Shown here one piece after another: positions 659 to 40,295 of a stretch of DNA of 48,194 bases. The position numbers and the translations under genes were made by a program. Each line of letters begins with the position of its first letter. Position 1 is the stretch's first letter. Source of the stretch: a virus (lineage: Duplodnaviria > Caudoviricetes); IMG/VR virus record IMGVR_UViG_3300022917_000014, positions 1 to 48,194 of that record, one strand, 5' to 3'. The notes beneath the pieces are model-generated. The model did no database searches, was not told where the DNA came from, and worked only from the letters and a program-made list of their open reading frames with translations.

Positions 659-680
659 TGCTTTGAGTTTAATTATTGAA

Positions 681-3046: not shown

Positions 3047-3073
3047 GGTGCTTTGTTTTTGTAAATGTAAAAT

Positions 3074-3102
3074 AAAAAAACCGGCACATTGCTGCGCCGG
3101 TT
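3074..3102 (-). terminator. Intrinsic terminator after the major capsid gene
   Basis: AACCGGCGCA-GCAA-TGTGCCGGTT followed by a T-run on the minus strand. Confidence 0.85.
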
Positions 3103-3144
3103 GTGTTTCCGCTTTTATCGGTGGCAAAACTGAAAGCCTGGGTA

Positions 3145-4182
3145 TTATGCGCCCTTGCTGTAGGACAGCACACCGGTCGGGTTGTAGTTCACTGAGCTAA
3201 CAGTAACGGTACAACCTTCAGGGTTTAAGAAGATACCGCCCCTGGTCTTCACTTTCCAGGTATGTACCAGGTGTTCCTGGGCTCCTGCGCTGGTACAGGT
3301 GAGTGCGTAGTAAACATCATACTTCACGCCCGGGATAACGGAACTGGGTGCAGTGTAGCGGGTCTGGTTAACCTTGCCGCCCACTTCCACCGGCGTATCG
3401 CTGTTCCGTACTTTGGTCACGAAAGCAATGGCGCTGGAAGATACCGCAAAGGTGTCCTCTGTCAGCCCTGCAGGTCCAAAATTAAACGGGTCGAAGTACA
3501 TGCGCAACTGTGCAATGCGGGCCGCGTCGCCCTTGCCGTCCAGGTTGCCGGCATTCAATTGGGCGTTGGTCCAGGGCACCCACAAACCACCGTTGTCGAT
3601 GTAGTAGGCGTTACCCAATTTGTTCATCATTGCGTCGTACATCATTTCCGCGATCATAGACACATTATACTGGGCAGCGGGTACTGTAGTAGTGCCTGCA
3701 GCGTAGGTATAAGGTTCTGGTGACACGTTGATGCCGGCGAAAGCCTTCAACTTTACAAGGTTCTGCTGTGCCCACCATTCGTCCAGGGCTTTGATCGCAA
3801 AGGCCAATCCGCTGGCCGCTTCCTCCTCGACCGTGTACGTATTGGTCCGGGTCTTTTCCGCGTCTACGGAAAAGGTGACCTCTTTACACATGTCCAGCGT
3901 GTAGGTCTTGCCGCCGCTTTCAAGCTCGGCACCTACTACGGTACAATCGGTGGTACAGTCCTGCACCGCTACGGCGCAAGGGTTGATAAAGTTTACAATG
4001 ACCTGGTTTTCCTTGTCGCGGTCTTCCAGCATTGAAAAACGGGCCGTGCTGTTTGTCTTCACAGCCACGGCTGCCTGGGCATTCGCTTTGTAGTCCTGCG
4101 CCAATCGGCTATCTGCCCACATGCTTTCCGCCTTAAGCTTGATTGCTAAGAGGGCCGATGCACTGAAATCGCCTGCTGCCAT
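3145..4182 (-). CDS. Major capsid protein
   Basis: 345 aa; follows a scaffold-like gene and is followed by a strong terminator; typical size and position. Confidence 0.75.
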   Translation of the reverse strand: MAAGDFSASALLAIKLKAESMWADSRLAQDYKANAQAAVAVKTNSTARFSMLEDRDKENQVIVNFINPCAVAVQDCTTDCTVVGAELESGGKTYTLDMCKEVTFSVDAEKTRTNTYTVEEEAASGLAFAIKALDEWWAQQNLVKLKAFAGINVSPEPYTYAAGTTTVPAAQYNVSMIAEMMYDAMMNKLGNAYYIDNGGLWVPWTNAQLNAGNLDGKGDAARIAQLRMYFDPFNFGPAGLTEDTFAVSSSAIAFVTKVRNSDTPVEVGGKVNQTRYTAPSSVIPGVKYDVYYALTCTSAGAQEHLVHTWKVKTRGGIFLNPEGCTVTVSSVNYNPTGVLSYSKGA

Positions 4183-6097: not shown

Positions 6098-6190
6098 TGT
6101 AAAAAGGTTTGTTTGATGTGTGATTGCAAAAATGGTTCCGACGCGGAAACACAGCCGGTGCAGAACCTCATGCGTTGACAAATATAAAAG

Positions 6191-6220
6191 AAAAAAGCCG
6201 GGACGTACTGCCCCGGCTTT
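6191..6220 (-). terminator. Intrinsic terminator
   Basis: AAAGCCGGGGC-AGTAC-GTCCCGGCTTTTTT on the minus strand. Confidence 0.85.
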
Positions 6221-9824: not shown

Positions 9825-9851
9825 GTGGAAAAATATTTGATCAAATGTAAC

Positions 9852-9878
9852 AAAAAAGCCCCGACGCATGGCCGGGGC
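9852..9878 (-). terminator. Intrinsic terminator
   Basis: GCCCCGGC-CATGC-GTCGGGGC-TTTTTT on the minus strand. Confidence 0.85.
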
Positions 9879-11887: not shown

Positions 11888-13471
11888 TCAGTCTATATAG
11901 TCGCGGGCAAGCTCACAGACCAGGTATTCCACGGCATCGGTCGGGTGGCCGCGCTTCTCGTAGTGGGCACCGGTGGCCTCGTCCTTAACCTTCTCTTTTA
12001 CCTTACCTAATGGCCCCAGTTTCACATGTTCAAAGTCTTCAATTGTCTGTTCGCACGCCTCGTCAATTTCCAGTTCAATGTACGGGATTTTTCCGCCCAG
12101 TATTTTGTTAAGCAGGTCCCGGCGCTTCAGCGGTGATATATTCGTGCCCTTGACCTTCATACTGTCGTTGTGAATGAACCTGTACAGCTTGTCCTCAATA
12201 ATACCGTAGTTGGTCAGGCTACCCAGGCCCGGTATCCTGTTCCGGCCGCTGGCATCGCCGTAATAATCCACGTCAATGCCGTACTCATGATCAGCGATAA
12301 AGTGTTCACAACACGCATCTGTGGTGTTCTCAGGGCTTACCAGGCAGTACTCCCTGTATATCCGTATTCGCATTACCTGTATGGCCTTGTCTCCCGGCTC
12401 AGGCTGGTAGTGCTTTTCCCCGGCCTCACTCAGGTATCGCGTGACAAATTCCAGTTGGGCGCATATCAGGGTCATGAAGGGAACGACGTTAAAGTCCCAT
12501 GTGGTCAACACACCGGTGCCTGGTAGGAAGGAAACAGGCTTCACATGTATGTCCCGCCGGAAAGTGGGGTAATACTCCCCGCCGGTCTTGCCGAACGGGT
12601 AACCATAGACCACCCGCAGGACCTTCTCAAAGTCGGGCGCGTTCTTTTCCCGGTTGGTTATGTAGTTCGGTGGCAGGTTCGGCTGGTTGTGGTGACTGCT
12701 GTATACGCATACAGCCTTATCGCCATCATCATACCTGAAAAAGTCCTTTTCCTTCCTCAGCACCCGCTTTTTAATGTCCTTTGCGTGTTTGCGCAGGTCG
12801 AACATATCATTTAGCCATTCCACGCCACCCTTAGCAGGTGAGGTGTGTATGTACAACGGGTTCCAGCCTGTCCAGCCCCGGGCCTCAGCCCCTACCTCGT
12901 CGATAGTATCGTCGAACCATATCACGCCTGCACGATCATACCACAGGCCAAACTGCCGTAACCTTCCCTCGATCACCTCGGTGACGGCCTCCATTTTCGT
13001 GTCTTTGGTCTCGTCCAGGTGAGCATATCCAAACTCTTTACCATCGTGGGCCATGTAGTTCTCTAACGATCCTATGAATATCAGGGCACCGTTGTGAAAA
13101 CTGATTGTGCCGTTATACCGGTTACCCAGGTCGTGCAGCTTTTTAAAGTGAGGTGGCGGCATCCGGTCGATGACGAACGCGCCCCGGGGGTTGCTCTTTG
13201 GGTGGTACATCGTATAGCCCCATATTTCTTTCCATGCCTTGTACACGCCCACCAGCGTGGACTGCGAAAGCTGCATGTTCGTATTTGCACCTATAAACCC
13301 GCGGACCTGCGGGAAATCCGACGCCATCATGCCCGATGATATGCCAATCGTGCGGGTTTTCCCACCTCCCTGGCCAGCTATCTCAGCGATTTTTGCGGCA
13401 CGGCTGGCCAGCACGAACTCCTGCGGCTCGCTGATTTCCTCCACCGTGTCCTGGTACTGTACTTCACTCAT
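11888..13471 (-). CDS. terL: Terminase large subunit
   Basis: Walker A AGQGGGKT, Walker B AHLDE, nuclease WDFN...GDASG...HPTDAVEY. Confidence 0.9.
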   Translation of the reverse strand: MSEVQYQDTVEEISEPQEFVLASRAAKIAEIAGQGGGKTRTIGISSGMMASDFPQVRGFIGANTNMQLSQSTLVGVYKAWKEIWGYTMYHPKSNPRGAFVIDRMPPPHFKKLHDLGNRYNGTISFHNGALIFIGSLENYMAHDGKEFGYAHLDETKDTKMEAVTEVIEGRLRQFGLWYDRAGVIWFDDTIDEVGAEARGWTGWNPLYIHTSPAKGGVEWLNDMFDLRKHAKDIKKRVLRKEKDFFRYDDGDKAVCVYSSHHNQPNLPPNYITNREKNAPDFEKVLRVVYGYPFGKTGGEYYPTFRRDIHVKPVSFLPGTGVLTTWDFNVVPFMTLICAQLEFVTRYLSEAGEKHYQPEPGDKAIQVMRIRIYREYCLVSPENTTDACCEHFIADHEYGIDVDYYGDASGRNRIPGLGSLTNYGIIEDKLYRFIHNDSMKVKGTNISPLKRRDLLNKILGGKIPYIELEIDEACEQTIEDFEHVKLGPLGKVKEKVKDEATGAHYEKRGHPTDAVEYLVCELARDYID

Positions 13472-14040
13472 TCCTCAATGATTTGTTGGGTAGTCGTTTC
13501 CCTGGTCTGGAAGATAGTGCGGCGTATTATCGTGGTGCTGCTGGTCTTCTCGCCGTTGTTGTAGTTATTCACCTGCAGGGCTGCGGTCGCGGTTGCGCCC
13601 GCCATTGGATCACCAGGCCCCAGGAACTTCATGCGCTTTTCAATGCAGCGTTCCACGCCCTTCAGGAACTCGTGTTCCCCGGCCTCGGTCTTCACCATCT
13701 TACCGCCTTTTTTCTGCTGCTTTGTTGATCGGTCCCAGGCTTCCCAGTACTCTCGTTCCAGCCGGTTCAGCTTTTGAATTTCCACGGCGATGTAGTCCTG
13801 TATCAGTGCGCTTTTTTGGGCGATGCAGTCGGCGATTGCCTTGTCGATTACCTTGCCGACATACGTACGGTGGAACTTATGGCCCTCAATCTTCGTAGCC
13901 TCGTCTGCCACTTCCTGCTGACTGTACCCCCGCATGTACAGCGTTACAATCGTATTGGACCACCTCGCTTTTCTCAGTTTCACGGGGGAATTTGGGGCTT
14001 TGTCCATGACTTCAGCCCGGTTTTTTCCTTTTCTTTTCAT
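13468..14040 (-). CDS. terS: Terminase small subunit (HTH)
   Basis: N-terminal HTH (LYMRGYSQQEVA), LNRLEREYWEAW and CIEKRMKFLG segments; overlaps the terL start. Start may instead be 14007. Confidence 0.65.
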   Translation of the reverse strand: MKRKGKNRAEVMDKAPNSPVKLRKARWSNTIVTLYMRGYSQQEVADEATKIEGHKFHRTYVGKVIDKAIADCIAQKSALIQDYIAVEIQKLNRLEREYWEAWDRSTKQQKKGGKMVKTEAGEHEFLKGVERCIEKRMKFLGPGDPMAGATATAALQVNNYNNGEKTSSTTIIRRTIFQTRETTTQQIIEE

Positions 14041-17006: not shown

Positions 17007-17550
17007 AAGGGTATGTTTTTTTAATGAGTGATTGAAACCTGGCCAAATCCCTGCGGCGTATGTACCACATAAATGATTTATTGCCGCCAGGGTATTGCCT
17101 GTCAAACCGGCGCAGGTTACGCTTTACTGCCCACAATACCCTGCGGTCCAGTTTGTAATTCCAATCCCATTTTATTGTAATCGGAAAACTGTGCAGTGCC
17201 TTAGTCAACTCGGCCGTTGCCTTCCTAACAATATCCAACTCAATGTTGATACGATGGATTGAGCTTATTAAACGGGTCTGCACTTCTGGCCACATCATTT
17301 GAGTAAATAGCAGCCTTTTGTCGAACTCGGGGTCGCCTCCCTTACCGTGTTCATAGACGGGTAAAAGTGCCGGGTCAAGGTCTGCCGGCGGCTCCGGCAT
17401 AGGTTGTCTGGTGCCCCATATTAGCCCGTCGTCGGTCTCGTAGTAAGCCAGGCATGGTACGTTATTAACCAACATTTGCACCGGTTGGATGCCCATTTCC
17501 TGTAGGTGCATGTACAGCGGGTTGTCTTTGGTGAAGAACCTTACAATCAT
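16948..17550 (-). CDS. Hypothetical protein
   Basis: 200 aa; ATGA coupling. Confidence 0.55.
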   Translation of the reverse strand: MIVRFFTKDNPLYMHLQEMGIQPVQMLVNNVPCLAYYETDDGLIWGTRQPMPEPPADLDPALLPVYEHGKGGDPEFDKRLLFTQMMWPEVQTRLISSIHRINIELDIVRKATAELTKALHSFPITIKWDWNYKLDRRVLWAVKRNLRRFDRQYPGGNKSFMWYIRRRDLARFQSLIKKTYPYGCGADIKTGGVPTGCGQR

Positions 17551-18338
17551 GGCGTTGGGTTTTTAGGTTCCTCATAGACAATATATTCGCCGCGCTCGAA
17601 ACCTGCTATTGAATGTGCCAGGTTCCAATCGTCCTCACTATACCGGTGGCCGTGTGCGTTCACCATATCCACGGCAAGTAAGTTTTTGTTTTCCCATACA
17701 GATATAACTGTGCATATCACGCCCGGCATGTGACGGGATATAAATTTCAGCCCGGCCTGTATCTTCGGCCCGTTCTTACCCAGTGCAGCAGCGTAAGGTG
17801 TACCCTGGGCAGCCATTAATGCGTCGGCCTTCCTCTTATAGTGTTCCGGTGGCGAGTCAACCAATCCGGTTAGAACCCGTAGGCCGGCGTCCAGATTTTG
17901 GGGCAGCCTGGTTGATGCTGCAGCCCACACGTCTGTCTGATTTGCCTGTCTCTTTACCAGCCATCCCTGGCCGTCATACTGGCAAAATACCGGCACTGCA
18001 CCATAAATCCGGCACCATGCCACAGTAAAGTCTGACCCAATAAAAAAGAACCCATTTTCGTCCAGCGTGTCAGGTTGTTTTGCTGCCTGCAGGGCATCGT
18101 GGGTTATTACTTCGACATTGAAAAACTGTTCTGTTTCGTCCAGCATTTCCTGTAACTCCCTGGCTGCTGCGTCTTCGTTGGTCACGTCCATATCATCCCG
18201 CTGGTAGATGAGTAATTGCGCCCATGCGGCGAAAAAACAACGTTTCATTTCGCGCTGCTGGTCTGCGGGCATAGTAGCCTCGTCCAGCTTCACATGCTTT
18301 AAATAGTCTTTCCACTGTTGTAATACGATTTTTGACAT
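17547..18338 (-). CDS. Hypothetical protein
   Basis: 263 aa ORF. Confidence 0.65.
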   Translation of the reverse strand: MSKIVLQQWKDYLKHVKLDEATMPADQQREMKRCFFAAWAQLLIYQRDDMDVTNEDAAARELQEMLDETEQFFNVEVITHDALQAAKQPDTLDENGFFFIGSDFTVAWCRIYGAVPVFCQYDGQGWLVKRQANQTDVWAAASTRLPQNLDAGLRVLTGLVDSPPEHYKRKADALMAAQGTPYAAALGKNGPKIQAGLKFISRHMPGVICTVISVWENKNLLAVDMVNAHGHRYSEDDWNLAHSIAGFERGEYIVYEEPKNPTP

Positions 18339-19920: not shown

Positions 19921-20112
19921 TTAGAACAAACTTTTTTGTTCTGACTCTGCCAATGCCGCAGTAGTAGCAGCATCGACCAGCTTTTCCAGGTCCCGGGCTT
20001 GCCTGTACCAATTAACTGCGACTGCTTCTAACTTCGCCCGGCGGGCCTTAAAATACTCTGTCTGAGCTTCTCGCATGGCCTTCACCAGCTTTGCATACTC
20101 TTTAATGTCCAT
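19921..20112 (-). CDS. Hypothetical protein
   Basis: MDIKEYAKLVKAMREAQTEYF...LEKLVD, a short helical protein. Confidence 0.6.
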   Translation of the reverse strand: MDIKEYAKLVKAMREAQTEYFKARRAKLEAVAVNWYRQARDLEKLVDAATTAALAESEQKSLF

Positions 20113-20123
20113 ACTGTAACGAT

Positions 20124-20600
20124 TTAAAAAATGTGAGTAATTAAAGTCTTTTCCACCTCGGTGAGCTGTCGCCACATCTGTGATCCCTTCCAGGGGAATG
20201 GCTTTATCGGTGTCACCTGGTCATATTCATGAACGAATAAAAAACGGTCATAGTCCACGTACGCCTGCGGCTCATCCTCTTTGATCATGGGCCTGCAGTC
20301 AATGAGGCGACCCACGCCGATTGCATGGGCCAGTGGCAGGTTGTGCTGCTTTTTGGCCAGCCCTTGAATGCCCAGGGCCGCCAGTACACGGTTGTACTGG
20401 GTCATGCTGCTAAACTTTGAAAGTTCCAGCAGGTTGTAAGGGGTAATGCTGGCGCAAATAAGCACGTAACCCCTGTAGTTCGTGTTCCAGGTTCTCGTCT
20501 CAAACCGTTTACCGTTCAGCATCATTGATGCGTAAGGCTGGCGCCACGATAGGGCGCGTATCTCGTTTTCTGTCTTGACAATATCGTCGATGATGTTCAT
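20124..20600 (-). CDS. ASCH-domain protein
   Basis: ALSWRQPYA...GKRFETRTW.T.YRG.VLICAS matches the ASCH signature. Confidence 0.85.
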   Translation of the reverse strand: MNIIDDIVKTENEIRALSWRQPYASMMLNGKRFETRTWNTNYRGYVLICASITPYNLLELSKFSSMTQYNRVLAALGIQGLAKKQHNLPLAHAIGVGRLIDCRPMIKEDEPQAYVDYDRFLFVHEYDQVTPIKPFPWKGSQMWRQLTEVEKTLITHIF

Positions 20601-20602
20601 GG

Positions 20603-21070
20603 TTATAAAAAGATTTTTTTGTGACGTTCCAGGGCTTCCTGTACGTTGATCTTGTTTGCTCTAATAAGGAAGGCCAGCACGTCAGCAGACGCAGCCGCCC
20701 CTATCCTGTAAATACGCATATTGTCGGGATAAAAGACCGGGTAACTTTCCCGTTCTATGGCCCTGGCGTTCTGGAACTCCTTATCAGTAAATAAATCTGG
20801 CTTTGGCCATTGGTTACCGATCATCGCGTCCAATTCAGGCTTAGTCCATGCCGGCACCATGTCTTCGCTAATATCGTCGACGGTAGCAAATGGCATCATG
20901 CCCACCTGCCATACTAATTTAGGGCTTCCGTCGGCGTTGTTTGGTTCCGCCAGGCTTTCCTCCCTGCTGTACCAGAACAGGGCCGGCTGACCCATCATGC
21001 CCAGGGTCAGCAAGTCCTCGCATTGGGATGGTAGTGCTACCAACTTCTGTATTTTGTCTTGCATTTTCAA
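20603..21070 (-). CDS. Hypothetical protein
   Basis: 155 aa ORF. Confidence 0.6.
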   Translation of the reverse strand: MKMQDKIQKLVALPSQCEDLLTLGMMGQPALFWYSREESLAEPNNADGSPKLVWQVGMMPFATVDDISEDMVPAWTKPELDAMIGNQWPKPDLFTDKEFQNARAIERESYPVFYPDNMRIYRIGAAASADVLAFLIRANKINVQEALERHKKIFL

Positions 21071-24184: not shown

Positions 24185-25705
24185 TTACTTAATTGCTGCC
24201 AGTGAAGCAATGGCACATTTGATCAATTCGTCGATGCCACGGGCCAATGTTGCGGCAATAGGTAGCACCTTATCGCTGGTAATATGCGGATTAGTGTCGT
24301 TTGCTGCCTGCAATCTGGTCAGGAACTCCTTAAGTCTATCAGCGTCGGAAAGTGCGCCCTGGCGGTCTTTTTCTGCCTGCGCATCTTTTTCCTTTTTGAT
24401 GGTGTTTTCTTCCGCGCACTTCTCAATATGGGCAGTAGTCCGGTCGTCGATGAGCTTCATCCACATTTCATCAGGGGCGCCGTTAACTTGCTCATACGTA
24501 AGGGTCAGCATTTCAATCTCGGGGTATGCGTATGCCTTGAAAAAGCCAGCATTACCCCGCTTCATGCCAAACCGTTCGGTTAGCATAGTCTCGCGCTGCA
24601 GGGTGCGTGCCTTAAGGTCGTCGGCCTCCTTTTGCTCCTTTTTGCGCTGTTCTTCCTTCCGGTCTTCCTCGTCCTGGCGTTCCTTGTCTTTGATGGCCTG
24701 GCCTTCCTTCATGTTTTTGACCTTGCTTTCAATATCGGCGTACTCCTTATCCCACAGATCATCCCCCAAACCTTCCACGGTGCCGACTGGCAACGTGATA
24801 CGGCCCATATCGAACGTGCCGAACTGCCAGACAAAACTGCTATAGTTATAGCTCATGCCCAATGCCTCCAATGTCTTCGCGCGCAGGTTAGTGCGGGTCT
24901 TCAACATAGCATCCTCGCGGTCTTTTTGCTCTTTTTCCTTCCGGTCCATTTCGTCCTGGCGTTCCTTCAGCTTGCGCTCCTGTTCTTCCTGCTGCTGGCG
25001 CTGTAGTTCCAGTCTGTCCTTTTCGTCCTGTTCCTTTCGTTCCTGTTCTGCTTTTGCTTCAAGAATGCGGGCGTTTTCAGACCTTACCCGAACCATCAGG
25101 CCGTCGAAATCATCGTCTTTCATGTCCTTGACCGTGGCAATATCCAGGCTGATCACCTCGCCAATAGTGTAGTATGAACCGTTAAAAGTGATGCCGTTGT
25201 CGATGAGGCTCTGCACCCGCGCATCTGTTTTAGCCTGCAGGGCACGTTCTGCCTCGCGCTTCTTTTCCTCTTTGGCGTTGTCAATCTCATTCATACGGTC
25301 CTTTAGCGGTCCCTCAATTTCTTCCAGCAGTTCAGTAAACTCATTTTTTGCCCCGTCAATTTTTCGGGTAATCACAAGGTAATCCGCCTTTAATTCCTTG
25401 TGCTTACCGGCTACTGCCAGTCGCTTATTACGGATTTCTCGCCATGCCGTTTCCACCTTACTATAACCTTCTTTGTCCTCAATTCCAGCAATGGTTAACG
25501 CCAGATACTTCTTTTTCCTTGTGGCTATCCACTGCTTTGACAAGTTATAAGCCTGTATTTCTTTTTCAGCCTTTTGGTCGGCGGTCATAATTTCCAATGG
25601 ACCGGTAACCACTTCGGCCTCAACGTCGACCGTAGTAGGTTCCACGGGAAACGGAATAGGTTCGACGACTGTTTTTTCTGCTTTGGCTTTGACTGTTTTT
25701 GCCAT
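24185..25705 (-). CDS. Long coiled-coil protein (DUF1351-like N-terminal region)
   Basis: 506 aa, E/K/R-rich helices; near the recombination/replication genes. Confidence 0.6.
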   Translation of the reverse strand: MAKTVKAKAEKTVVEPIPFPVEPTTVDVEAEVVTGPLEIMTADQKAEKEIQAYNLSKQWIATRKKKYLALTIAGIEDKEGYSKVETAWREIRNKRLAVAGKHKELKADYLVITRKIDGAKNEFTELLEEIEGPLKDRMNEIDNAKEEKKREAERALQAKTDARVQSLIDNGITFNGSYYTIGEVISLDIATVKDMKDDDFDGLMVRVRSENARILEAKAEQERKEQDEKDRLELQRQQQEEQERKLKERQDEMDRKEKEQKDREDAMLKTRTNLRAKTLEALGMSYNYSSFVWQFGTFDMGRITLPVGTVEGLGDDLWDKEYADIESKVKNMKEGQAIKDKERQDEEDRKEEQRKKEQKEADDLKARTLQRETMLTERFGMKRGNAGFFKAYAYPEIEMLTLTYEQVNGAPDEMWMKLIDDRTTAHIEKCAEENTIKKEKDAQAEKDRQGALSDADRLKEFLTRLQAANDTNPHITSDKVLPIAATLARGIDELIKCAIASLAAIK

Positions 25706-25775
25706 AGTTCTATGATTTATTGTTGATGAATAAGAAAAGCAAATATAATAAATAGGAAAAGAAAAAGAAATAAAA

Positions 25776-26279
25776 CTATACTATTTTGGAAATAAAGGCC
25801 GCTAATATCTTCGCCACCTGCCTGGGTGTTAGCCCGCGCGCCTGCATATCCACCTGACCGTGGGAGGCAAAAAACACCAACGAACCCGGCGCTATGCCAC
25901 TGTCAAAAGCAATGGTTTCACGTATGGATACTGCCATGCCCTTGATCTGTTGATCTGCAGTAAACCCTTGTACGTGACTATCCAGGCCCTTTAATGGCAG
26001 CTTACCGTCCGGCTGATTGATGGCACGGTCGAAGTTAAAAAGCGGCGCCTGTGCCCCTGCAGGGCCTTTGTAGCGGCCTCTTTTCTTCGCGGGTCGTTTG
26101 TTGACCTGTTTGTATGGCTTTTTTGTGAATTTAACCGCCCCAATCACATGTCGGCGCTGTCGAATAGCGTCGGGGTTCCGGCACATCTGTGTGGCTATGG
26201 CTGTGTCTTTCCAGCCAGCAGCAAATAAGTTTCGCAGGTTATTGTCCTGTTCCTGCGTCCAGGGCTTTGGCTTTGCCAT
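25776..26279 (-). CDS. Putative HTH DNA-binding protein
   Basis: WTQEQD..L..L...G.....IA..M.R...AI..R Myb/GcrA-like N-terminus. Confidence 0.55.
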   Translation of the reverse strand: MAKPKPWTQEQDNNLRNLFAAGWKDTAIATQMCRNPDAIRQRRHVIGAVKFTKKPYKQVNKRPAKKRGRYKGPAGAQAPLFNFDRAINQPDGKLPLKGLDSHVQGFTADQQIKGMAVSIRETIAFDSGIAPGSLVFFASHGQVDMQARGLTPRQVAKILAAFISKIV

Positions 26280-28336: not shown

Positions 28337-29371
28337 CTATTTTTCTTTCACTTTATTGAGAAATCTACGCACACCATTAGCATCGGTTTTCCACGAAATA
28401 TACCCACTTGTCCCCCAGTCCATACGGTCGGCGCCATCCCTCAATACCTGCTTTAGCTGGTTTTCTTTCAGCCTGGCAGTGTTCTGCAGTTCGGTAATGC
28501 GGCTTTTTACGTCCAGGTGTTCCCGCGCGATCTGCAAATTTTCCAGCGTGCCGGCCATCTCGCCCGGGCGGGCAATGCGGTACTTTTCCTTTAAGAAATC
28601 ACTGTACGCCTCGCTACCGTCTGGCTCCGGCTCTATCTTCTGCAGCTTTGCATTGCATTCGTCCACCAATCGCTGGTTGTGGTTGCGCATTGCATCATAC
28701 CGGACTGTGGCCAGCCTGCGGCCTTCGACCACCCGGTCCCAAAACTCTTTAGTTCGGTCGATGATGGCACCGCAAATACTTTTGTTATAGGTGAAGGGCA
28801 GCACATTGAACTCGCGGCCATTCTTAAGGGTGGCCAGCTCCCCGTGGTCGAACTCACACACAAGTAGCTGCGTCTGCACCTGTACGACGTGACTGGGTGG
28901 TATACCGCCCTCCCATTTGTCACTTTCATGCCCGGCGATGGTCTTCAATTCCAGGGCACCCTCGCCCCGGGCGGTCGTCTTGTTGATCTTCCTATCCAGG
29001 CTCACGAATAGCCACGGATAGGCGGGGTTCTGCACGTAGGCGTTGACCTTCTGGCACCTGCGTACGACGTTTTTAGACCGGTAGTTTTTGATCATTGTAG
29101 CCACATGATCATCTGCAGCGTGCGGGTCCCAATACTGCCACATATCTGCCAGCAGGGGCTCCTGTTCCTTGCCCATAAACATGTAGATGTTTTCCACATT
29201 GTACCCAATGTCCTCGCCGATCTTCTCGTAATACAGTTCTATGCTGCTTTTGTACGGGTTGAACCCCATCACGGTGCCCACGTCACTGGCACCAATGCCG
29301 CGCGTTCTGAACCGTAGCCAATCCTCCTGCGACATGTCAGTGGTCGGCGTCAGTAATAACTTTGATTTCAT
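28337..29371 (-). CDS. YqaJ-like (lambda-exo family) recombination exonuclease
   Basis: WL..R..GIGASD, SLDR, LELKT and QVQ.QL motifs. Confidence 0.9.
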   Translation of the reverse strand: MKSKLLLTPTTDMSQEDWLRFRTRGIGASDVGTVMGFNPYKSSIELYYEKIGEDIGYNVENIYMFMGKEQEPLLADMWQYWDPHAADDHVATMIKNYRSKNVVRRCQKVNAYVQNPAYPWLFVSLDRKINKTTARGEGALELKTIAGHESDKWEGGIPPSHVVQVQTQLLVCEFDHGELATLKNGREFNVLPFTYNKSICGAIIDRTKEFWDRVVEGRRLATVRYDAMRNHNQRLVDECNAKLQKIEPEPDGSEAYSDFLKEKYRIARPGEMAGTLENLQIAREHLDVKSRITELQNTARLKENQLKQVLRDGADRMDWGTSGYISWKTDANGVRRFLNKVKEK

Positions 29372-29399
29372 GGTAAAAATGCTTTGAGTTGGTGAAGAT

Positions 29400-30726: not shown

Positions 30727-30800
30727 TGTGTAAGATATTTGAAAGCGAAAGTAAAGAAAAGAGAAAAGAAAACAAAATAATAAAGTAACTGGAAGGGAAT

Positions 30801-30831
30801 AAAAAAGCCTGAACCGGTTAAGGTCCAGGCT
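30801..30831 (-). terminator. Intrinsic terminator
   Basis: AGCCTGGACC-TTAACC-GGTTCAGGCT-TTTTT. Confidence 0.8.
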
Positions 30832-32078: not shown

Positions 32079-32474
32079 TTACTGTTCCTCAAATACTGTG
32101 TCTTCTATATCATCCCCACCGGCACCAAGCTGAAGGGCCTGCACCTGAGCCAGAAACGCCTCTGTTTCTTCTTTGATGTATGCAGGTAGCCAGGCAGTGC
32201 GCAGGTTATCCATATACGGGCTGCTGGCCACACTTCTGTACACGGTATTGTTGATCTCGAACTGGAAAACCCAATAAGGGCCCTTACTGTCTTTAGCGGC
32301 TGTATCCTGACCCTCGGCTTTTACCATGTCAAATGTTAAGTAGGGCGTTTTGGCAGTATCGGCCAGTATCCGGTTGGTTCGTATGAAAGATGATATTTTG
32401 GCCAAATCAGTGTCCAGCCTTTTACCTGCACGCTCGTTGATGTAATCCTGCAGGCTGTCAATGGTGATGTTCAT
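32079..32474 (-). CDS. Hypothetical protein
   Basis: 131 aa ORF. Confidence 0.6.
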   Translation of the reverse strand: MNITIDSLQDYINERAGKRLDTDLAKISSFIRTNRILADTAKTPYLTFDMVKAEGQDTAAKDSKGPYWVFQFEINNTVYRSVASSPYMDNLRTAWLPAYIKEETEAFLAQVQALQLGAGGDDIEDTVFEEQ

Positions 32475-32505
32475 GGTAGTAATGCCCAGTACCGCCGGGC
32501 GCGGT

Positions 32506-33171: not shown

Positions 33172-33244
33172 GATGGTATATTTTACCCAAATGTAATAAA
33201 AAAGAAACAAAAAGAGAAAATAAAAGGAAATAAAAAGGAAATAT

Positions 33245-34543
33245 TTAGGACATATTTTTAAGAAACTTGTCTACCAGGTCAATACGTTTCCCTATCCACT
33301 CCATTACCGGAACGGCCATACTGTTTCCAATTAACTGATAACGAGAGGTATCACTGCATCCGGGAATATTGGTATAGCCATCAGGAAACCCTTGCAGGCG
33401 TTCGCATTCCAATGGCGTTAACCTGCGCACTGCAGGCACCAGAAAAATAGTGGATGTTTTTGTCAAAGACGGGGAAGGGTCGCCGGGTTGCGGATTTGAT
33501 CGGTTGTGAAAGCTGGTTATCTGGTTATATGGGTACGCAATAACATGTGAGTTCTTTGAGGCGTCTGCCCGCAAAGTGTTCTTTACATCTTGTTTTTTCC
33601 AATTTTCATTTAGAAGGCTGGCCGGTTCGTATAGTACTGCCTGCCCGTCGTTTCCGTTAGTGTCAAGTGTGTAAGCAATACCAGCCTCATTAATTCCTGA
33701 CCCACCTGCCCCATTGTTGGCCGTTCTTATTGCCATAGGAACTACATGCCCACTCATAGCACCGTCAGACCCAGGGAAACCGCCCCCCTTTGTCCTTGCG
33801 TCCAGTGTACCCACAATTACGTGTCCTGCTGCTGCGTCGTCTGCTCCTGGACTACGGCCTTTAGAGCGCGTGTTAAGTGCTCCGGCAATTTCTTCCCCCG
33901 CTTTTCTGCCCGCTTCAAAATTCCCTGGCATGCTGTTGGGCTCAAACAATACCGCTGCAGGTGGTCGCCAGTCACTTCCAAAATATCCGACAACGAAGAT
34001 GCGACGGCGTCGCTGTGGAACTCCGAAATATTGAGCGTCCAGCACCCTGTAGGCGCAACAATACCCGCATTCCCGAAACGCTGCAAGGATGGCTGCAAAA
34101 TCCGACGTTTCTGTAATATCTTCTGCGTATGTATGTCCAACTCCTGCCAGATTTGGACCGTCTGCCGCATTTGAGAAAGAACTAAGGGCACCGGGGACGT
34201 TTTCCCAAACAAACCAGCGGGGTCTCTTTGTAACCAGTATTCTACAATATTCAAGGGCAAGGTTGCCACGAATATCGGAAAGCCCCCCCCGTAATCCTGC
34301 GACGCTGAAAGATTGGCACGGGGTTCCTCCGACCAAAATGTCAATTGTACATTTTTGGAATTGCTCATTTTCGTGCAGTTTAAGCATATCCCCCAGGTTG
34401 GGTACATGCGGATAGTGATACTTTAATAGTTTGCAGGGGAAGGGTTCAATTTCTGAGAAAAAAGCAGGCTTCCATCCCAATGAATGCCAGGCCAGCGTTG
34501 CCGCCGATCCACCGGTACAAACGTCTCCATAAATCATACTCAT
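33245..34543 (-). CDS. C5-cytosine DNA methyltransferase
   Basis: GGTPCQ (IV), WENVPG (VI), QRRRRIF (VIII), RRLTPLECERLQGFP (IX) and GNSMAV (X). Confidence 0.93.
   Translation of the reverse strand: MSMIYGDVCTGGSAATLAWHSLGWKPAFFSEIEPFPCKLLKYHYPHVPNLGDMLKLHENEQFQKCTIDILVGGTPCQSFSVAGLRGGLSDIRGNLALEYCRILVTKRPRWFVWENVPGALSSFSNAADGPNLAGVGHTYAEDITETSDFAAILAAFRECGYCCAYRVLDAQYFGVPQRRRRIFVVGYFGSDWRPPAAVLFEPNSMPGNFEAGRKAGEEIAGALNTRSKGRSPGADDAAAGHVIVGTLDARTKGGGFPGSDGAMSGHVVPMAIRTANNGAGGSGINEAGIAYTLDTNGNDGQAVLYEPASLLNENWKKQDVKNTLRADASKNSHVIAYPYNQITSFHNRSNPQPGDPSPSLTKTSTIFLVPAVRRLTPLECERLQGFPDGYTNIPGCSDTSRYQLIGNSMAVPVMEWIGKRIDLVDKFLKNMS
33817..34368 (-). CDS. Nested +1-frame ORF, putative methyltransferase second (beta-like) subunit
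   Basis: 183 aa open frame wholly inside the MTase gene, ending SLSDILE...RYCLSPTACQGILKRAEKRGKKLP..L..AL. Confidence 0.6.
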   Translation of the reverse strand: MSNSKNVQLTFWSEEPRANLSASQDYGGGFPIFVATLPLNIVEYWLQRDPAGLFGKTSPVPLVLSQMRQTVQIWQELDIHTQKILQKRRILQPSLQRFGNAGIVAPTGCWTLNISEFHSDAVASSLSDILEVTGDHLQRYCLSPTACQGILKRAEKRGKKLPEHLTRALKAVVQEQTTQQQDT

Positions 34544-34866: not shown

Positions 34867-34942
34867 GGGTTGGGTTTAGAGTTTAAAAAGGGCCGGGGCA
34901 TCACCCCCGGCCAGCCCGCAGTACTTCGCGGGAAACTACGGG

Positions 34943-35233
34943 CTAAAAGACTTTCGACCCGCCTATTTTGATACCTACCAGTTTAAGCCAGCCCAGTACG
35001 TACTCGGCTTCCTCAGCTTGTGTTTTGGCTTTCGGCAAATGGCCGCGCCATATCATATCCATGTAAGGGCCGTAAACATCGACGAAAATTTCAAAGTGTA
35101 CACCGCCTTTGATGTGTACCATGAAAGTGGGCTCTGTACTGTTCGGGCCGCTGTTGTCGATTATGTGGATAGTTCCACAACGAATGGGGCCGATCTTTTT
35201 AAGTAGGTCGTAAAGCTCTCTTTTCTTACTCAT
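34943..35233 (-). CDS. Hypothetical protein (first early gene)
   Basis: ATG at 35233 downstream of the promoter box at 35264. Confidence 0.6.
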   Translation of the reverse strand: MSKKRELYDLLKKIGPIRCGTIHIIDNSGPNSTEPTFMVHIKGGVHFEIFVDVYGPYMDMIWRGHLPKAKTQAEEAEYVLGWLKLVGIKIGGSKVF

Positions 35234-35329
35234 TTTGCGAAGTTTTTGTGTGATTTGATACGTCAAATGTACACACTTTTGAAATAAAAAGGAAAAGAAA
35301 AGGAAACTATTTTATAAATAAGTGGAAAT

Positions 35330-35362
35330 AAAAAGGGCCGGGAGTATGTCAGCCCCCGACCC
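35330..35362 (-). terminator. Intrinsic terminator ending the late/lysis transcript
   Basis: GGGTCGGGGG...CTCCCGGCCC-TTTT. Confidence 0.7.
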
Positions 35363-35411
35363 GTACCATGAAAAACATCAACAATTAAAGTCAAAGCGTG
35401 TGTAATATACG

Positions 35412-35831
35412 CTATAACAATGATATGGTTTTCAGCCACGCCCGTACATCAAAAGACGGGCATTCTTTGGTCACTCCCGGAAAATCCCGATGCCCCAATA
35501 TGTCCGCCGTTGGGAATTGTTTGTGATACTTGCGCAGTAGGCCGATCTGAGCCGCCACCTGTTGGGGTGTCCGGTTATCCAGTCCCCGGCCCTTGCCATC
35601 CACTCCGCCGATGTAGCTAATATTGATACTATCATGGTTATGGCCGGCCACGCCGTTGCTAACCTGGTCAATAGGTAGCAGGTCCACTACGGTGCCATCG
35701 GGCTGTATTATGTGGTGGTAGCCTGGCGATTTCCATTTTAGCACCTCACGCCAATACCTTTGAATACTGGCCACTGTAGCCGTCTGTGGGGTCGCTGTGC
35801 AATGCAAAATGATGTGATTGATCGTACGCAT
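35412..35831 (-). CDS. Endolysin, N-acetylmuramoyl-L-alanine amidase (Amidase_2)
   Basis: IILHCTAT, GYH.II..DG, GHN..SI.ISYIGG and GHRD...KECPSFDV. Confidence 0.93.
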   Translation of the reverse strand: MRTINHIILHCTATPQTATVASIQRYWREVLKWKSPGYHHIIQPDGTVVDLLPIDQVSNGVAGHNHDSINISYIGGVDGKGRGLDNRTPQQVAAQIGLLRKYHKQFPTADILGHRDFPGVTKECPSFDVRAWLKTISLL

Positions 35832-39440: not shown

Positions 39441-40295
39441 TTAGAAAGACAGCGTACCAGTCTGGAAGACCGCCGGCCCGTGTTCCACTCCTGCCTTGTC
39501 CGTGTACAGGAAGTAGGTGCCCAGGTAATCGGTCGTAAAGTCGATGGTGGTTTCCTCTACGCCGCCCACTTCAATGGACATACTCGCGGGCGTACCCACG
39601 CGCGGGGAGATCGCGTTGAACTCAAATTTTTGGTCGGCATCCGTTGCCAGCACAGTCATGGTAATGCCCTGGTCTGTGTCAGTTGTAGAAGCTCCGACGG
39701 TCAATTCTGTGTCAAAAGTCGTAGGGGTTACACCGCTGCTGCCATCGTAAATCGGTGAAATAGCACGCTCAGGGTGGAACTTTGAACGCCAGGACAATAC
39801 GCCGTTGATCGTCTCAATCTCATCCCGGCCCCGGTTCAACACATCGTTGGCATCTACCCGGCTGGTAAAGCCTTCGTTACCCCCGAACATGTAACCGCCT
39901 TCGGTCTCATACCAGAAACGGTATTCGCCACCGCATTCCAGTGCCCTCATAAATTCGTAGTTCTCATCCGTCACATCGTCAATGGTCCAGTTAAGTGTGT
40001 GGTCCTTGCCGATGGTGACCCGGCGGCCGTTGCTCACTTCCTTTACCACCGATGTGGCTGCCGGCTTGTCTCCGATCACCGTAAGGGCGCGAATGTAATC
40101 ATTGCCGACAACGTTCGTTTCGCTCATACGGGCAATCCATTCGCCTGCAGCCTTCCAGTTGGCGAACGGGGCGGCGTTCAGCTTTGCGATGAATATGCGC
40201 CGTATTTCACTGAAAACTACGTTGGGTGCGCAGCGGTTGAACTTAACCACCGGCAGCGTAGCATTGCAGTCTAAAGTACATGTAGGTACTGGCAT
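39441..40295 (-). CDS. Putative major tail (tube) protein with C-terminal extension
   Basis: Beta-rich ~185 aa core plus extra domain; own promoter and terminator; shares a 16-nt leader element with MCP. Confidence 0.6.
   Translation of the reverse strand: MPVPTCTLDCNATLPVVKFNRCAPNVVFSEIRRIFIAKLNAAPFANWKAAGEWIARMSETNVVGNDYIRALTVIGDKPAATSVVKEVSNGRRVTIGKDHTLNWTIDDVTDENYEFMRALECGGEYRFWYETEGGYMFGGNEGFTSRVDANDVLNRGRDEIETINGVLSWRSKFHPERAISPIYDGSSGVTPTTFDTELTVGASTTDTDQGITMTVLATDADQKFEFNAISPRVGTPASMSIEVGGVEETTIDFTTDYLGTYFLYTDKAGVEHGPAVFQTGTLSF

What the first reader, a model, noticed from the sequence alone, without database searches (positions are those of the whole stretch)
35330..35411. Endolysin 3'-UTR RNA antisense to the membrane-protein leader and several early starts
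Seen: minus-strand GCUUUGACUUUAAUUGUUGA (35378-35397) pairs at 19/20 (one G-U, one mismatch) with the leader ending 1 nt before ATG 658 (660-679). The adjacent UUUCAUGGUA pairs 10/10 across the YqaJ AUG (29366-29375), with 8-9 nt matches at starts 32474 and 20600. AUUGUUGAUG pairs 10/10 with the leader of 25705 (25719-25728). Inference: a multi-target sRNA at the late/early boundary. The shorter matches may reflect generic start-context bias.
Basis: partly seen in the sequence, partly recalled or inferred. Interest (0 to 1): 0.78.

Follow-up and report, generated by a model that had tools for sequence, protein, structure and literature searches.

The report
Phage RNA mirroring its own leaders
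Behind the lysis genes of an uncultured phage that likely infects Bacteroidota, and of most relatives examined, lies a short untranslated stretch that mirrors the start regions of that same phage's genes and changes in step with them, so it likely acts as a small RNA that damps their translation, though no transcript has been seen and the flagged 20-base match to a membrane-protein gene was found only in this phage.

Summary
All flagged pairings are in the sequence. The 20-nt match to the membrane-gene (DUF1360-like) leader is unlikely by chance for this segment (about 1% per genome scan, about 10% after allowing for 11 segments tried), but none of 6 relatives keeps it. The 8-10-nt matches are not enriched within this phage alone (4 vs 2.6 expected).

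The clade comparison shows more. Ten related phages with unrelated lysins were scored. Their post-lysis, pre-terminator stretches differ in sequence, yet hold 60 perfect complements of 9 nt or more to their own start regions, against 18.5 expected from foreign ones. The hits are mostly early genes. The two phages that miss use a second element, after the YqaJ gene, instead. Five of 9 relatives have a canonical TAnnTTTG box there; this phage has only TATATTAC.

Verdict: likely a GibS/FopS-style anti-leader RNA of 65-80 nt damping early-gene translation. The membrane gene is at most a private target. No RNA data exist. The scan noted similar anti-leader tails before in other Bacteroidota phages.

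The parts
35412..35831 (-). Amidase endolysin, last gene of the late/lysis block
   Evidence: PF01510 E=1.4e-15; phrog_822 E=2.7e-47
35402..35409 (-). TATATTAC, possible weak -7 promoter box (2 mismatches to TAnnTTTG); a start 4 nt downstream would be 35397, the first base of the 20-mer
   Evidence: canonical box at the equivalent place in G004, G006, G007, G008 and G010; TAnnTTAC itself not enriched, 21 vs 15; 4-5 nt spacing from PMC6847099
35363..35397 (-). U/G-rich, weakly folded seed region of the predicted RNA
35378..35397 (-). 20-nt stretch complementary to the membrane-gene leader (18 WC, 1 G-U, 1 mismatch)
35376..35388 (-). 13-nt stretch complementary (12/13, 10 contiguous) to the leader of 24185-25705, the target that co-varies across the clade
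35364..35373 (-). Anti-start-codon stretch UUUCAUGGUA; relative G010 has a similar stretch matching 6 of its own starts
35330..35362 (-). Intrinsic terminator, 10-bp stem with two G-U pairs, then a U tract; more stable on the minus strand (-20.2 vs -13.8 kcal/mol)
660..679 (-). Target site: nearly the whole spacer before ATG 658 (positions -21 to -2, covering the -3, -6, -12 and -13 positions)
   Evidence: role of these positions from PMC6847099
272..658 (-). 128-aa membrane protein with hydrophobic ends, DUF1360-like (lead only); its stop lies 3 nt before the next gene (ATG 268, 172 aa, runs across the terminal overlap), which precedes the tape measure gene
25716..25728 (-). Target site in the short leader of 24185-25705, just after its own TATATTTG box (25747-25740)
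24185..25705 (-). 506-aa early coiled-coil protein of unknown function, conserved in the clade
29366..29375 (-). Site across the AUG of the YqaJ/RecE-like gene 28337-29371
20583..20603 (-). Site across the AUG of 20124-20600; second-best predicted duplex after opening costs (-16.2 kcal/mol)
32470..32478 (-). 9-nt site across the AUG of 32079-32474
35264..35271 (-). Canonical TACATTTG box opening the early block just after the terminator

Best explanation
The stretch between the lysin stop and the terminator likely acts as a short base-pairing RNA that would block translation of several of the phage's own genes, mostly early ones, by covering their A-rich start regions. Shown: the complementarities, the terminator, and that in related phages this stretch changes together with a genome-specific tag in their own leaders, most steadily that of the 24185-25705 family. 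Inferred: (1) an RNA of about 68-82 nt ending at about 35330 is made, either from a weak own promoter (start near 35397) or as the 3' end of the late mRNA; (2) its open 5' part pairs in trans, GibS-style, over the -21 to +17 zone that Bacteroidota ribosomes use in place of a Shine-Dalgarno sequence; (3) it builds up with late transcription and so turns early genes down (24185-25705, YqaJ, 20124-20600, 32079-32474). The 20-nt match to the membrane gene gives the strongest predicted duplex in this phage but is private to it; I put it at about even odds of being a real, recently gained target.
For: Own start regions beat foreign ones for 9 boundary segments: permutation p=0.0009; p=0.019 without this phage and the strongest relative; 0 of 300 shuffled-segment sets reach it; stop-codon and mid-CDS windows p=0.53 and 0.11. 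Perfect complements of 9 nt or more: 60 observed vs 18.5 expected over 10 genomes, 6 of 10 genomes with p<0.01 singly. Shuffled seeds give an excess of at most 8.2 against about 40. The excess is orientation-specific: antisense 58 vs 18.2, sense 12 vs 5.9, mid-CDS 7 vs 4. 36 of 47 hits fall on early genes, p=0.007. For the 24185-25705 family: best of 23 families, p=0.0015, about 0.035 after Bonferroni; every leave-one-out p<=0.013; 7 of 9 own vs 2 of 81 foreign pairs. G010, identified as a boundary element only after this family had been picked, fits: p=0.0002 with 9 genomes, and its start tag occurs in 6 own vs 1 foreign start region. In G001, G002 and G003 that leader is matched instead by a second promoter-plus-terminator unit after the YqaJ gene, which in this phage has lost the match (5.0). 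The place is kept although the lysin is swapped among unrelated families. Precedent: GibS pairs over start codons through a single-stranded 5' seed (PMC7366714, section 13 read); FopS RNAs are a single-stranded stretch plus terminator, one 3'-UTR-derived (PMC11697453, section 8 read).
Against: No transcript, end or interaction data. Within this phage alone the short matches are at background (4 vs 2.6 expected, p=0.27), and its seed pairs as well or better with one foreign leader of the 24185 family (12 vs 10.5). The two closest relatives have only a weak (G001) or no (G002) such stretch, and G013 shows a 25-nt A-rich spacer (by eye, not scored). The promoter box here misses two nearly invariant positions, and TAnnTTAC is not enriched in the clade. 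Sense-orientation matches are mildly raised (p=0.018), and the second count of stop-codon windows is raised too (27 vs 11), probably because these overlap the next gene's start region. Gene starts came from my own caller. U-rich segments reach scores of 17-17.5 on foreign genomes.
Confidence: 0.6

Rival explanations
1. In this phage the stretch is only a U-rich 3' UTR (or a decayed remnant of the clade's element), and its matches arise from the A-rich Bacteroidota start context plus one lucky 20-mer.
For: Short matches at background here; about 10% family-wise chance for the 20-mer and foreign scores up to 17.5; six 18/20 inverted matches in the genome; closest relatives lack the element; non-consensus box.
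Against: Cannot explain the own-versus-foreign excess in relatives. Here both YqaJ and 24185-25705 have lost the tag of the other element and carry 10-nt perfect complements to this one; the 25705 10-mer occurs in 0 of 721 foreign start regions.
Confidence: 0.22
2. The main job is a dedicated antisense switch on the membrane-protein gene 272-658 and, through likely translational coupling, the next gene before the tape measure, limiting a tail or membrane step late in infection.
For: Best hit on the whole coding strand; best duplex after opening costs, -17.3 kcal/mol; begins exactly where a start 4 nt after the box would fall; the next gene starts 3 nt after the stop, and G006 and G012 match the leader of that next gene instead (12 and 16).
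Against: 0 of 6 relatives keep the membrane-leader match; the family-level p=0.023 rests on this phage alone; the next-gene family gives p=0.07-0.11.
Confidence: 0.1
3. The shared motif works at DNA level or as a protein-binding site (operator, recombination site), and the stretch is just an inverted copy.
For: The two 20-mers form an inverted repeat in DNA; sense-orientation matches are slightly raised.
Against: The excess is mainly antisense (58 vs 12); the flagged pair includes a G-U; the 20-mer is not palindromic; no invertase or integrase among 60 ORFs scanned against PHROGs; the X1 contig covers 30000-41000 in one piece with no joint.
Confidence: 0.05
4. The stretch is the start region of a small gene on the plus strand, convergent with the lysin, which is why it looks like a reversed leader.
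For: The plus strand reads as a typical start context; G001 has a 97-codon antisense ORF.
Against: The ORF here has 6 codons; in 9 relatives the antisense ORFs are 5, 12, 17, 21 or 97 codons, or absent (4); the hairpin and U tract face the minus strand; TAnnTTTG is rare on the non-coding strand (15 vs 110).
Confidence: 0.03

Closest known systems
GibS and FopS sRNAs of Bacteroides thetaiotaomicron (PMC7366714; PMC11697453)
   Same: Single-stranded AU-rich 5' seed followed by an intrinsic terminator; long pairing over the start region of SD-less mRNAs; sigma-ABfr promoter or 3'-UTR origin (FopS-14); several targets.
   Different: No Rfam match. Phage-encoded, aimed at the phage's own genes rather than glycan genes. 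The seed is not conserved between phages but tracks a genome-specific leader tag. Expression and RbpB binding untested.
[quoted passage not shown]
   Same: Shares the terminator of an upstream mRNA; may come from an internal promoter just after the stop codon or from processing.
   Different: No Hfq context; position kept while the upstream gene is swapped among unrelated lysins; the kind of 5' end is unknown.
Phage trans-acting antisense RNAs: c4 of P1/P7, sar of P22, PAK_P4as15 (PMC12197685, passages)
   Same: Phage RNA pairing with the translation start of the phage's own mRNA.
   Different: Those control an antirepressor or, in cis, the endolysin. Here there is no antirepressor or integrase hit, no c4-like fold, and many early genes share the tag.
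icaR mRNA 3'-UTR/5'-UTR pairing of Staphylococcus aureus (PMC7821165, passages)
   Same: An untranslated tail complementary to a ribosome-binding region.
   Different: icaR pairs within one mRNA through an anti-SD motif; here most predicted targets lie on other transcripts and no SD is involved.

Membership tests
GibS/FopS family | Sequence and structure match to the family model (R1 seed) | tested here: not met
   0 Rfam matches at gathering score in the window; only chance-level hits at 35200-35500. I did not check that FopS is among the 4227 models held, and did not compare the R1 letters, which stand in figures.
GibS/FopS family | [quoted passage not shown] | tested here: met
   Predicted folds: weak 5' pairing, strong terminal hairpin
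GibS/FopS family | RbpB binding and repression by pairing | not testable with these tools
   Needs EMSA, CLIP or reporters
Type I 3'-UTR-derived sRNA | Own promoter just after the stop codon | tested here: inconclusive
   TATATTAC with 2 mismatches here; canonical box in 5 of 9 scored relatives; TAnnTTAC not enriched
Type I / II 3'-UTR-derived sRNA | Shares the terminator of the upstream mRNA | tested here: met
   Terminator 49 nt after the lysin stop
Type I / II 3'-UTR-derived sRNA | A discrete stable short transcript with a tri- or monophosphate 5' end | not testable with these tools
   Needs RNA data
Trans-acting base-pairing sRNA (general) | Seed and target change together across relatives | tested here: met
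   For the 24185-25705 family: 7 of 9 own vs 2 of 81 foreign pairs, p=0.0002-0.0015
Trans-acting base-pairing sRNA (general) | Conserved pairing with the membrane-gene leader | tested here: not met
   17 here vs 5.5-8 in 6 of 6 relatives
c4 / sar phage antisense RNAs | Family fold and an antirepressor target | tested here: not met
   No Rfam hit; no antirepressor among 60 ORFs scanned against PHROGs

The most novel reading that the evidence does not exclude
This clade times its infection with a circuit of short anti-leader RNAs instead of a second sigma factor. Early and late blocks both carry host-type TAnnTTTG boxes. An early promoter-terminator unit mirrors the leaders of the probable capsid gene and a tail gene, the probable capsid gene's 3' UTR mirrors the leader of the gene before the terminase, and the post-lysis RNA mirrors early leaders. 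Each phage carries its own leader 'barcode' that co-evolves with its RNA seeds and can be handed from one RNA to another, as with the 24185-25705 leader.
Probability: 0.25. Interest if true: 0.82.

Novelty: new variant of a known kind. Interest (0 to 1): 0.6.

Why it matters
No phage-encoded base-pairing RNA acting on a Bacteroidota phage's own genes turned up in my literature searches, and a 2025 review of phage sRNAs has no occurrence of 'Bacteroid'. These searches cover open-licence papers only. If real, this shows how phages of SD-less hosts can address sets of their own mRNAs: a private leader tag plus a matching RNA tail. Such RNAs are invisible to sequence-conservation searches because seed and targets drift together. 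It gives a concrete, testable model for the early-to-late switch in a phage clade with no cultured member among the records searched.

Tried and rejected
Lysin homologues (55 loci) belong to unrelated phages and say nothing about this locus; relatives were found through tail, probable capsid and YqaJ proteins instead. An exact degenerate search for the 20-mer in viral contigs found 0. GTDB genomes gave no relative, the metagenome scan returned only the window's own record, and named phages gave no match to two structural proteins. Sequencing runs: no RNA holder listed. Rfam: nothing. A shift of the membrane-gene target to the next gene was tested after the fact: p=0.07-0.11, not accepted. YqaJ as a clade-wide target of this element: p=0.25, 3 of 9 own vs 2 of 81 foreign, unresolved. 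The model of 3145-4182 was unusable (pLDDT 31), so 'capsid' rests on gene order and conservation. The 24185-25705 model (pLDDT 75, pTM 0.31, long coiled coil) matched only unnamed or uncharacterised phage proteins at TM<=0.2; Pfam, NCBIfam and PDB gave no name. DUF1360 literature: 2 listings, not read. Rows left out: G005 (unrelated phage) served as a foreign set and was dropped from then on; G009, G018 and L113 looked like near-duplicates of G008, G014 and G019 and were not fetched whole or were dropped from most foreign sets; G003 and G014-G019 have no lysis-block end in their records; G013 has one but no terminator passed my filter, so it was not scored. No supplements were read; the GibS/FopS seed letters stand in figures I could not see.

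Full report
Setting. The window is a complete-looking circular tailed-phage genome with a 132-nt terminal overlap. It is gene-dense on the minus strand. The host is inferred to be Bacteroidota: TAnnTTTG boxes are strongly enriched in non-coding DNA of the coding strand across the clade (110 vs 15 on the other strand), and leaders are A-rich at -3 and -11 to -13 and G-poor, as described for Flavobacterium (PMC6847099, passages). The flagged stretch lies between an amidase endolysin and an intrinsic terminator. A canonical promoter box for the early block follows at 35271-35264.

Observation. The 20-mer has 18 Watson-Crick pairs, one G-U and one mismatch and is the best hit on the coding strand. 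Taken for this one segment it is unlikely: 0 of 467 foreign start regions reach its score, and resampled start regions give 0.7-1.3% per genome. Allowing for the 11 terminator-proximal segments of this phage brings that to about 10%, and foreign scores of 17-17.5 do occur. The genome holds six distant inverted matches of 18/20 or better. The 8-10-nt matches are at background when this genome is taken alone.

Relatives. Syntenic phage records were found through tail, probable capsid and YqaJ proteins and fetched. Ten of them include the end of the lysis block. Nine were scored, taking the first terminator after the lysis genes; G013 was not scored. Their lysins belong to unrelated families: M15 peptidases, CHAP, lysozyme, muramidase and PG-binding types. 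The pairing with the membrane-gene leader is not kept in 6 of 6 relatives with both parts called, and no strong complement of that leader exists elsewhere in 5 relatives searched.

What is kept is a design. Seven relatives (G004, G006, G007, G008, G010, G011, G012) have a U-rich or anti-AUG stretch before the terminator, five with a canonical TAnnTTTG box just upstream. G001 has a weak stretch; G002 and, by eye, G013 have none. The sequences differ from phage to phage, yet each pairs better with start regions of its own genome than with foreign ones. The permutation p is 0.0009 for nine genomes and 0.019 without this phage and G012; 0 of 300 shuffled sets reach it, and stop-codon and mid-CDS windows are not significant in that test. 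Counting perfect complements of 9 nt or more gives 60 against 18.5 expected; six of ten genomes are significant singly, while this phage, G001, G002 and G008 are not. The excess is mostly antisense (58 vs 18.2; sense 12 vs 5.9), absent in mid-CDS windows, partly present in stop-codon windows (27 vs 11, which I attribute to overlap with the next start region), and falls on early genes in 36 of 47 cases.

The steadiest target. Of 23 gene families, the leader of the 24185-25705 family tracks the boundary stretch best (p=0.0015, about 0.035 corrected), and this survives trimming to the part after the box and every leave-one-out. Seven of nine genomes have a perfect complement of 9-13 nt to their own leader, against 2 of 81 foreign pairs, with a different sequence each time. 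G010 was recognised as a boundary element only after this family had been picked. It fits: its anti-AUG stretch resembles the UUUCAUGGUA seen here, and its start tag is found in 6 own and 1 foreign start region, including its RecT and YqaJ genes. In G001, G002 and G003 the same leader is matched instead by another promoter-plus-terminator unit just after the YqaJ gene, whose seed co-varies with the YqaJ leader (p=0.004). In this phage that unit has lost its match to both YqaJ and 24185-25705, and both carry 10-nt complements of the flagged stretch. This hand-over was noticed after the fact. The 24185-25705 protein is a long coiled coil of unknown function.

Mechanism. Most likely an RNA ending at the terminator, with a largely open 35-nt 5' part, pairs in trans over start regions and lowers initiation, as GibS does (PMC7366714, passages and section 13) and with the layout of FopS (PMC11697453, passages and section 8). 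Its origin is open. TATATTAC at 35409-35402 would place a start at 35397, the first base of the 20-mer, given the 4-5-nt spacing in PMC6847099, and a TAnnTTAC box sits at the promoter position of another unit in G002. But the box misses two nearly invariant bases, and the variant is not enriched. The alternative is the 3' end of the late mRNA, intact or processed (types I and II in PMC7821165, passages). After opening costs the predicted ranking here is 272-658 (-17.3), 20124-20600 (-16.2), 32079-32474 (-13.2), YqaJ (-12.5), 17547-18338 (-12.4) and 24185-25705 (-11.5), against a median of -5.3 kcal/mol. The late-to-early shut-off role is inferred from position and target bias. The membrane gene (DUF1360-like by a language-model look-alike, a lead only) may be a private extra target.

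Rivals. Composition plus chance remains possible for this phage, since its own short matches are at background and its two closest relatives lack a strong element. A DNA or protein site and a convergent small gene fit poorly.

Comparison and novelty. It works like a GibS/FopS-type or 3'-UTR-derived sRNA but matches no Rfam family. It differs from c4, sar and PAK_P4as15 (PMC12197685, passages) in aiming at many genes through a tag that differs between phages. Searches for a described case in Bacteroidota phages found none (listings; passages of PMC12135933 were irrelevant); the FopS paper notes a FopS-like sequence in one phage. Earlier notes of this scan describe similar anti-leader tails in other Bacteroidota phages; none covers this genome or look-alike DNA. 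They are unchecked leads, not support. I class it as a new variant of a known kind, with interest 0.6.

Noticed in passing
window 28295-28205 (-), seed 28279-28261; orthologues in G001, G002, G003, G019: Promoter box, short seed and terminator between the YqaJ gene and the replication-initiator gene (also a possible attenuator of the latter). The seed co-varies with a genome-specific leader tag in at least three states (AATCATTAC in G001, AATCGTTAC in 7 G002 starts, AACCGTTA in 5 G003 starts). Here it best matches the start of 19921-20112 (20127-20109).
   Followed up: partly
window 19923-19850 (-), seed 19912-19888; targets 4211-4187 and 40323-40307: Early-region unit complementary to a motif shared by the leaders of 3145-4182 (probable capsid) and 39441-40295 (score 17 and 13.5). 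G002 has an orthologue at the same place; G004, G006 and G011 have units elsewhere with different seeds matching their own 39441 leaders at 11-13 perfect nt (units picked after the fact).
   Followed up: partly
window 3136-3122 (-) vs 14059-14045 (-): The 3' UTR of 3145-4182 is complementary over 15 nt to the leader of 13468-14040, the gene before the terminase. The pairing is kept in G002 and G015, and the UTR motif also in G001, G003 and G016.
   Followed up: partly
window 3092-3111 and 6144-6163: Another 18/20 inverted match: the leader hairpin after the promoter box at 6186 is complementary to the 5' arm of the terminator after 3145-4182; possible antitermination or chance.
   Followed up: no
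window 35247-35275: Palindrome overlapping the early TACATTTG box, operator-like; no repressor was identified among the ORFs scanned.
   Followed up: no
window 3063-3092, 6180-6209, 9843-9872 (repeat family D4) and 25741-25794, 30748-30801, 33201-33254, 35267-35330 (D1): Terminators or pyrimidine-rich tracts directly followed by -7 boxes; both early and late blocks carry host-type boxes.
   Followed up: partly
window 268-1 joined to 48062-47812: The two ORF fragments at the window ends are one 172-aa gene across the terminal overlap, between the membrane gene and the tape measure gene; possibly a tail assembly chaperone.
   Followed up: no
L057:18959-19459, L058:18304-18963 and other relatives: The endolysin slot is filled by at least five unrelated enzyme families across the clade while the flanking genes stay syntenic.
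   Followed up: yes
window 33247-34540 and 34868-35264: In the close relative in run X2, contig joints skip the DNA methyltransferase gene and the first early gene, suggesting variable inserts (what lies between is not known).
   Followed up: no
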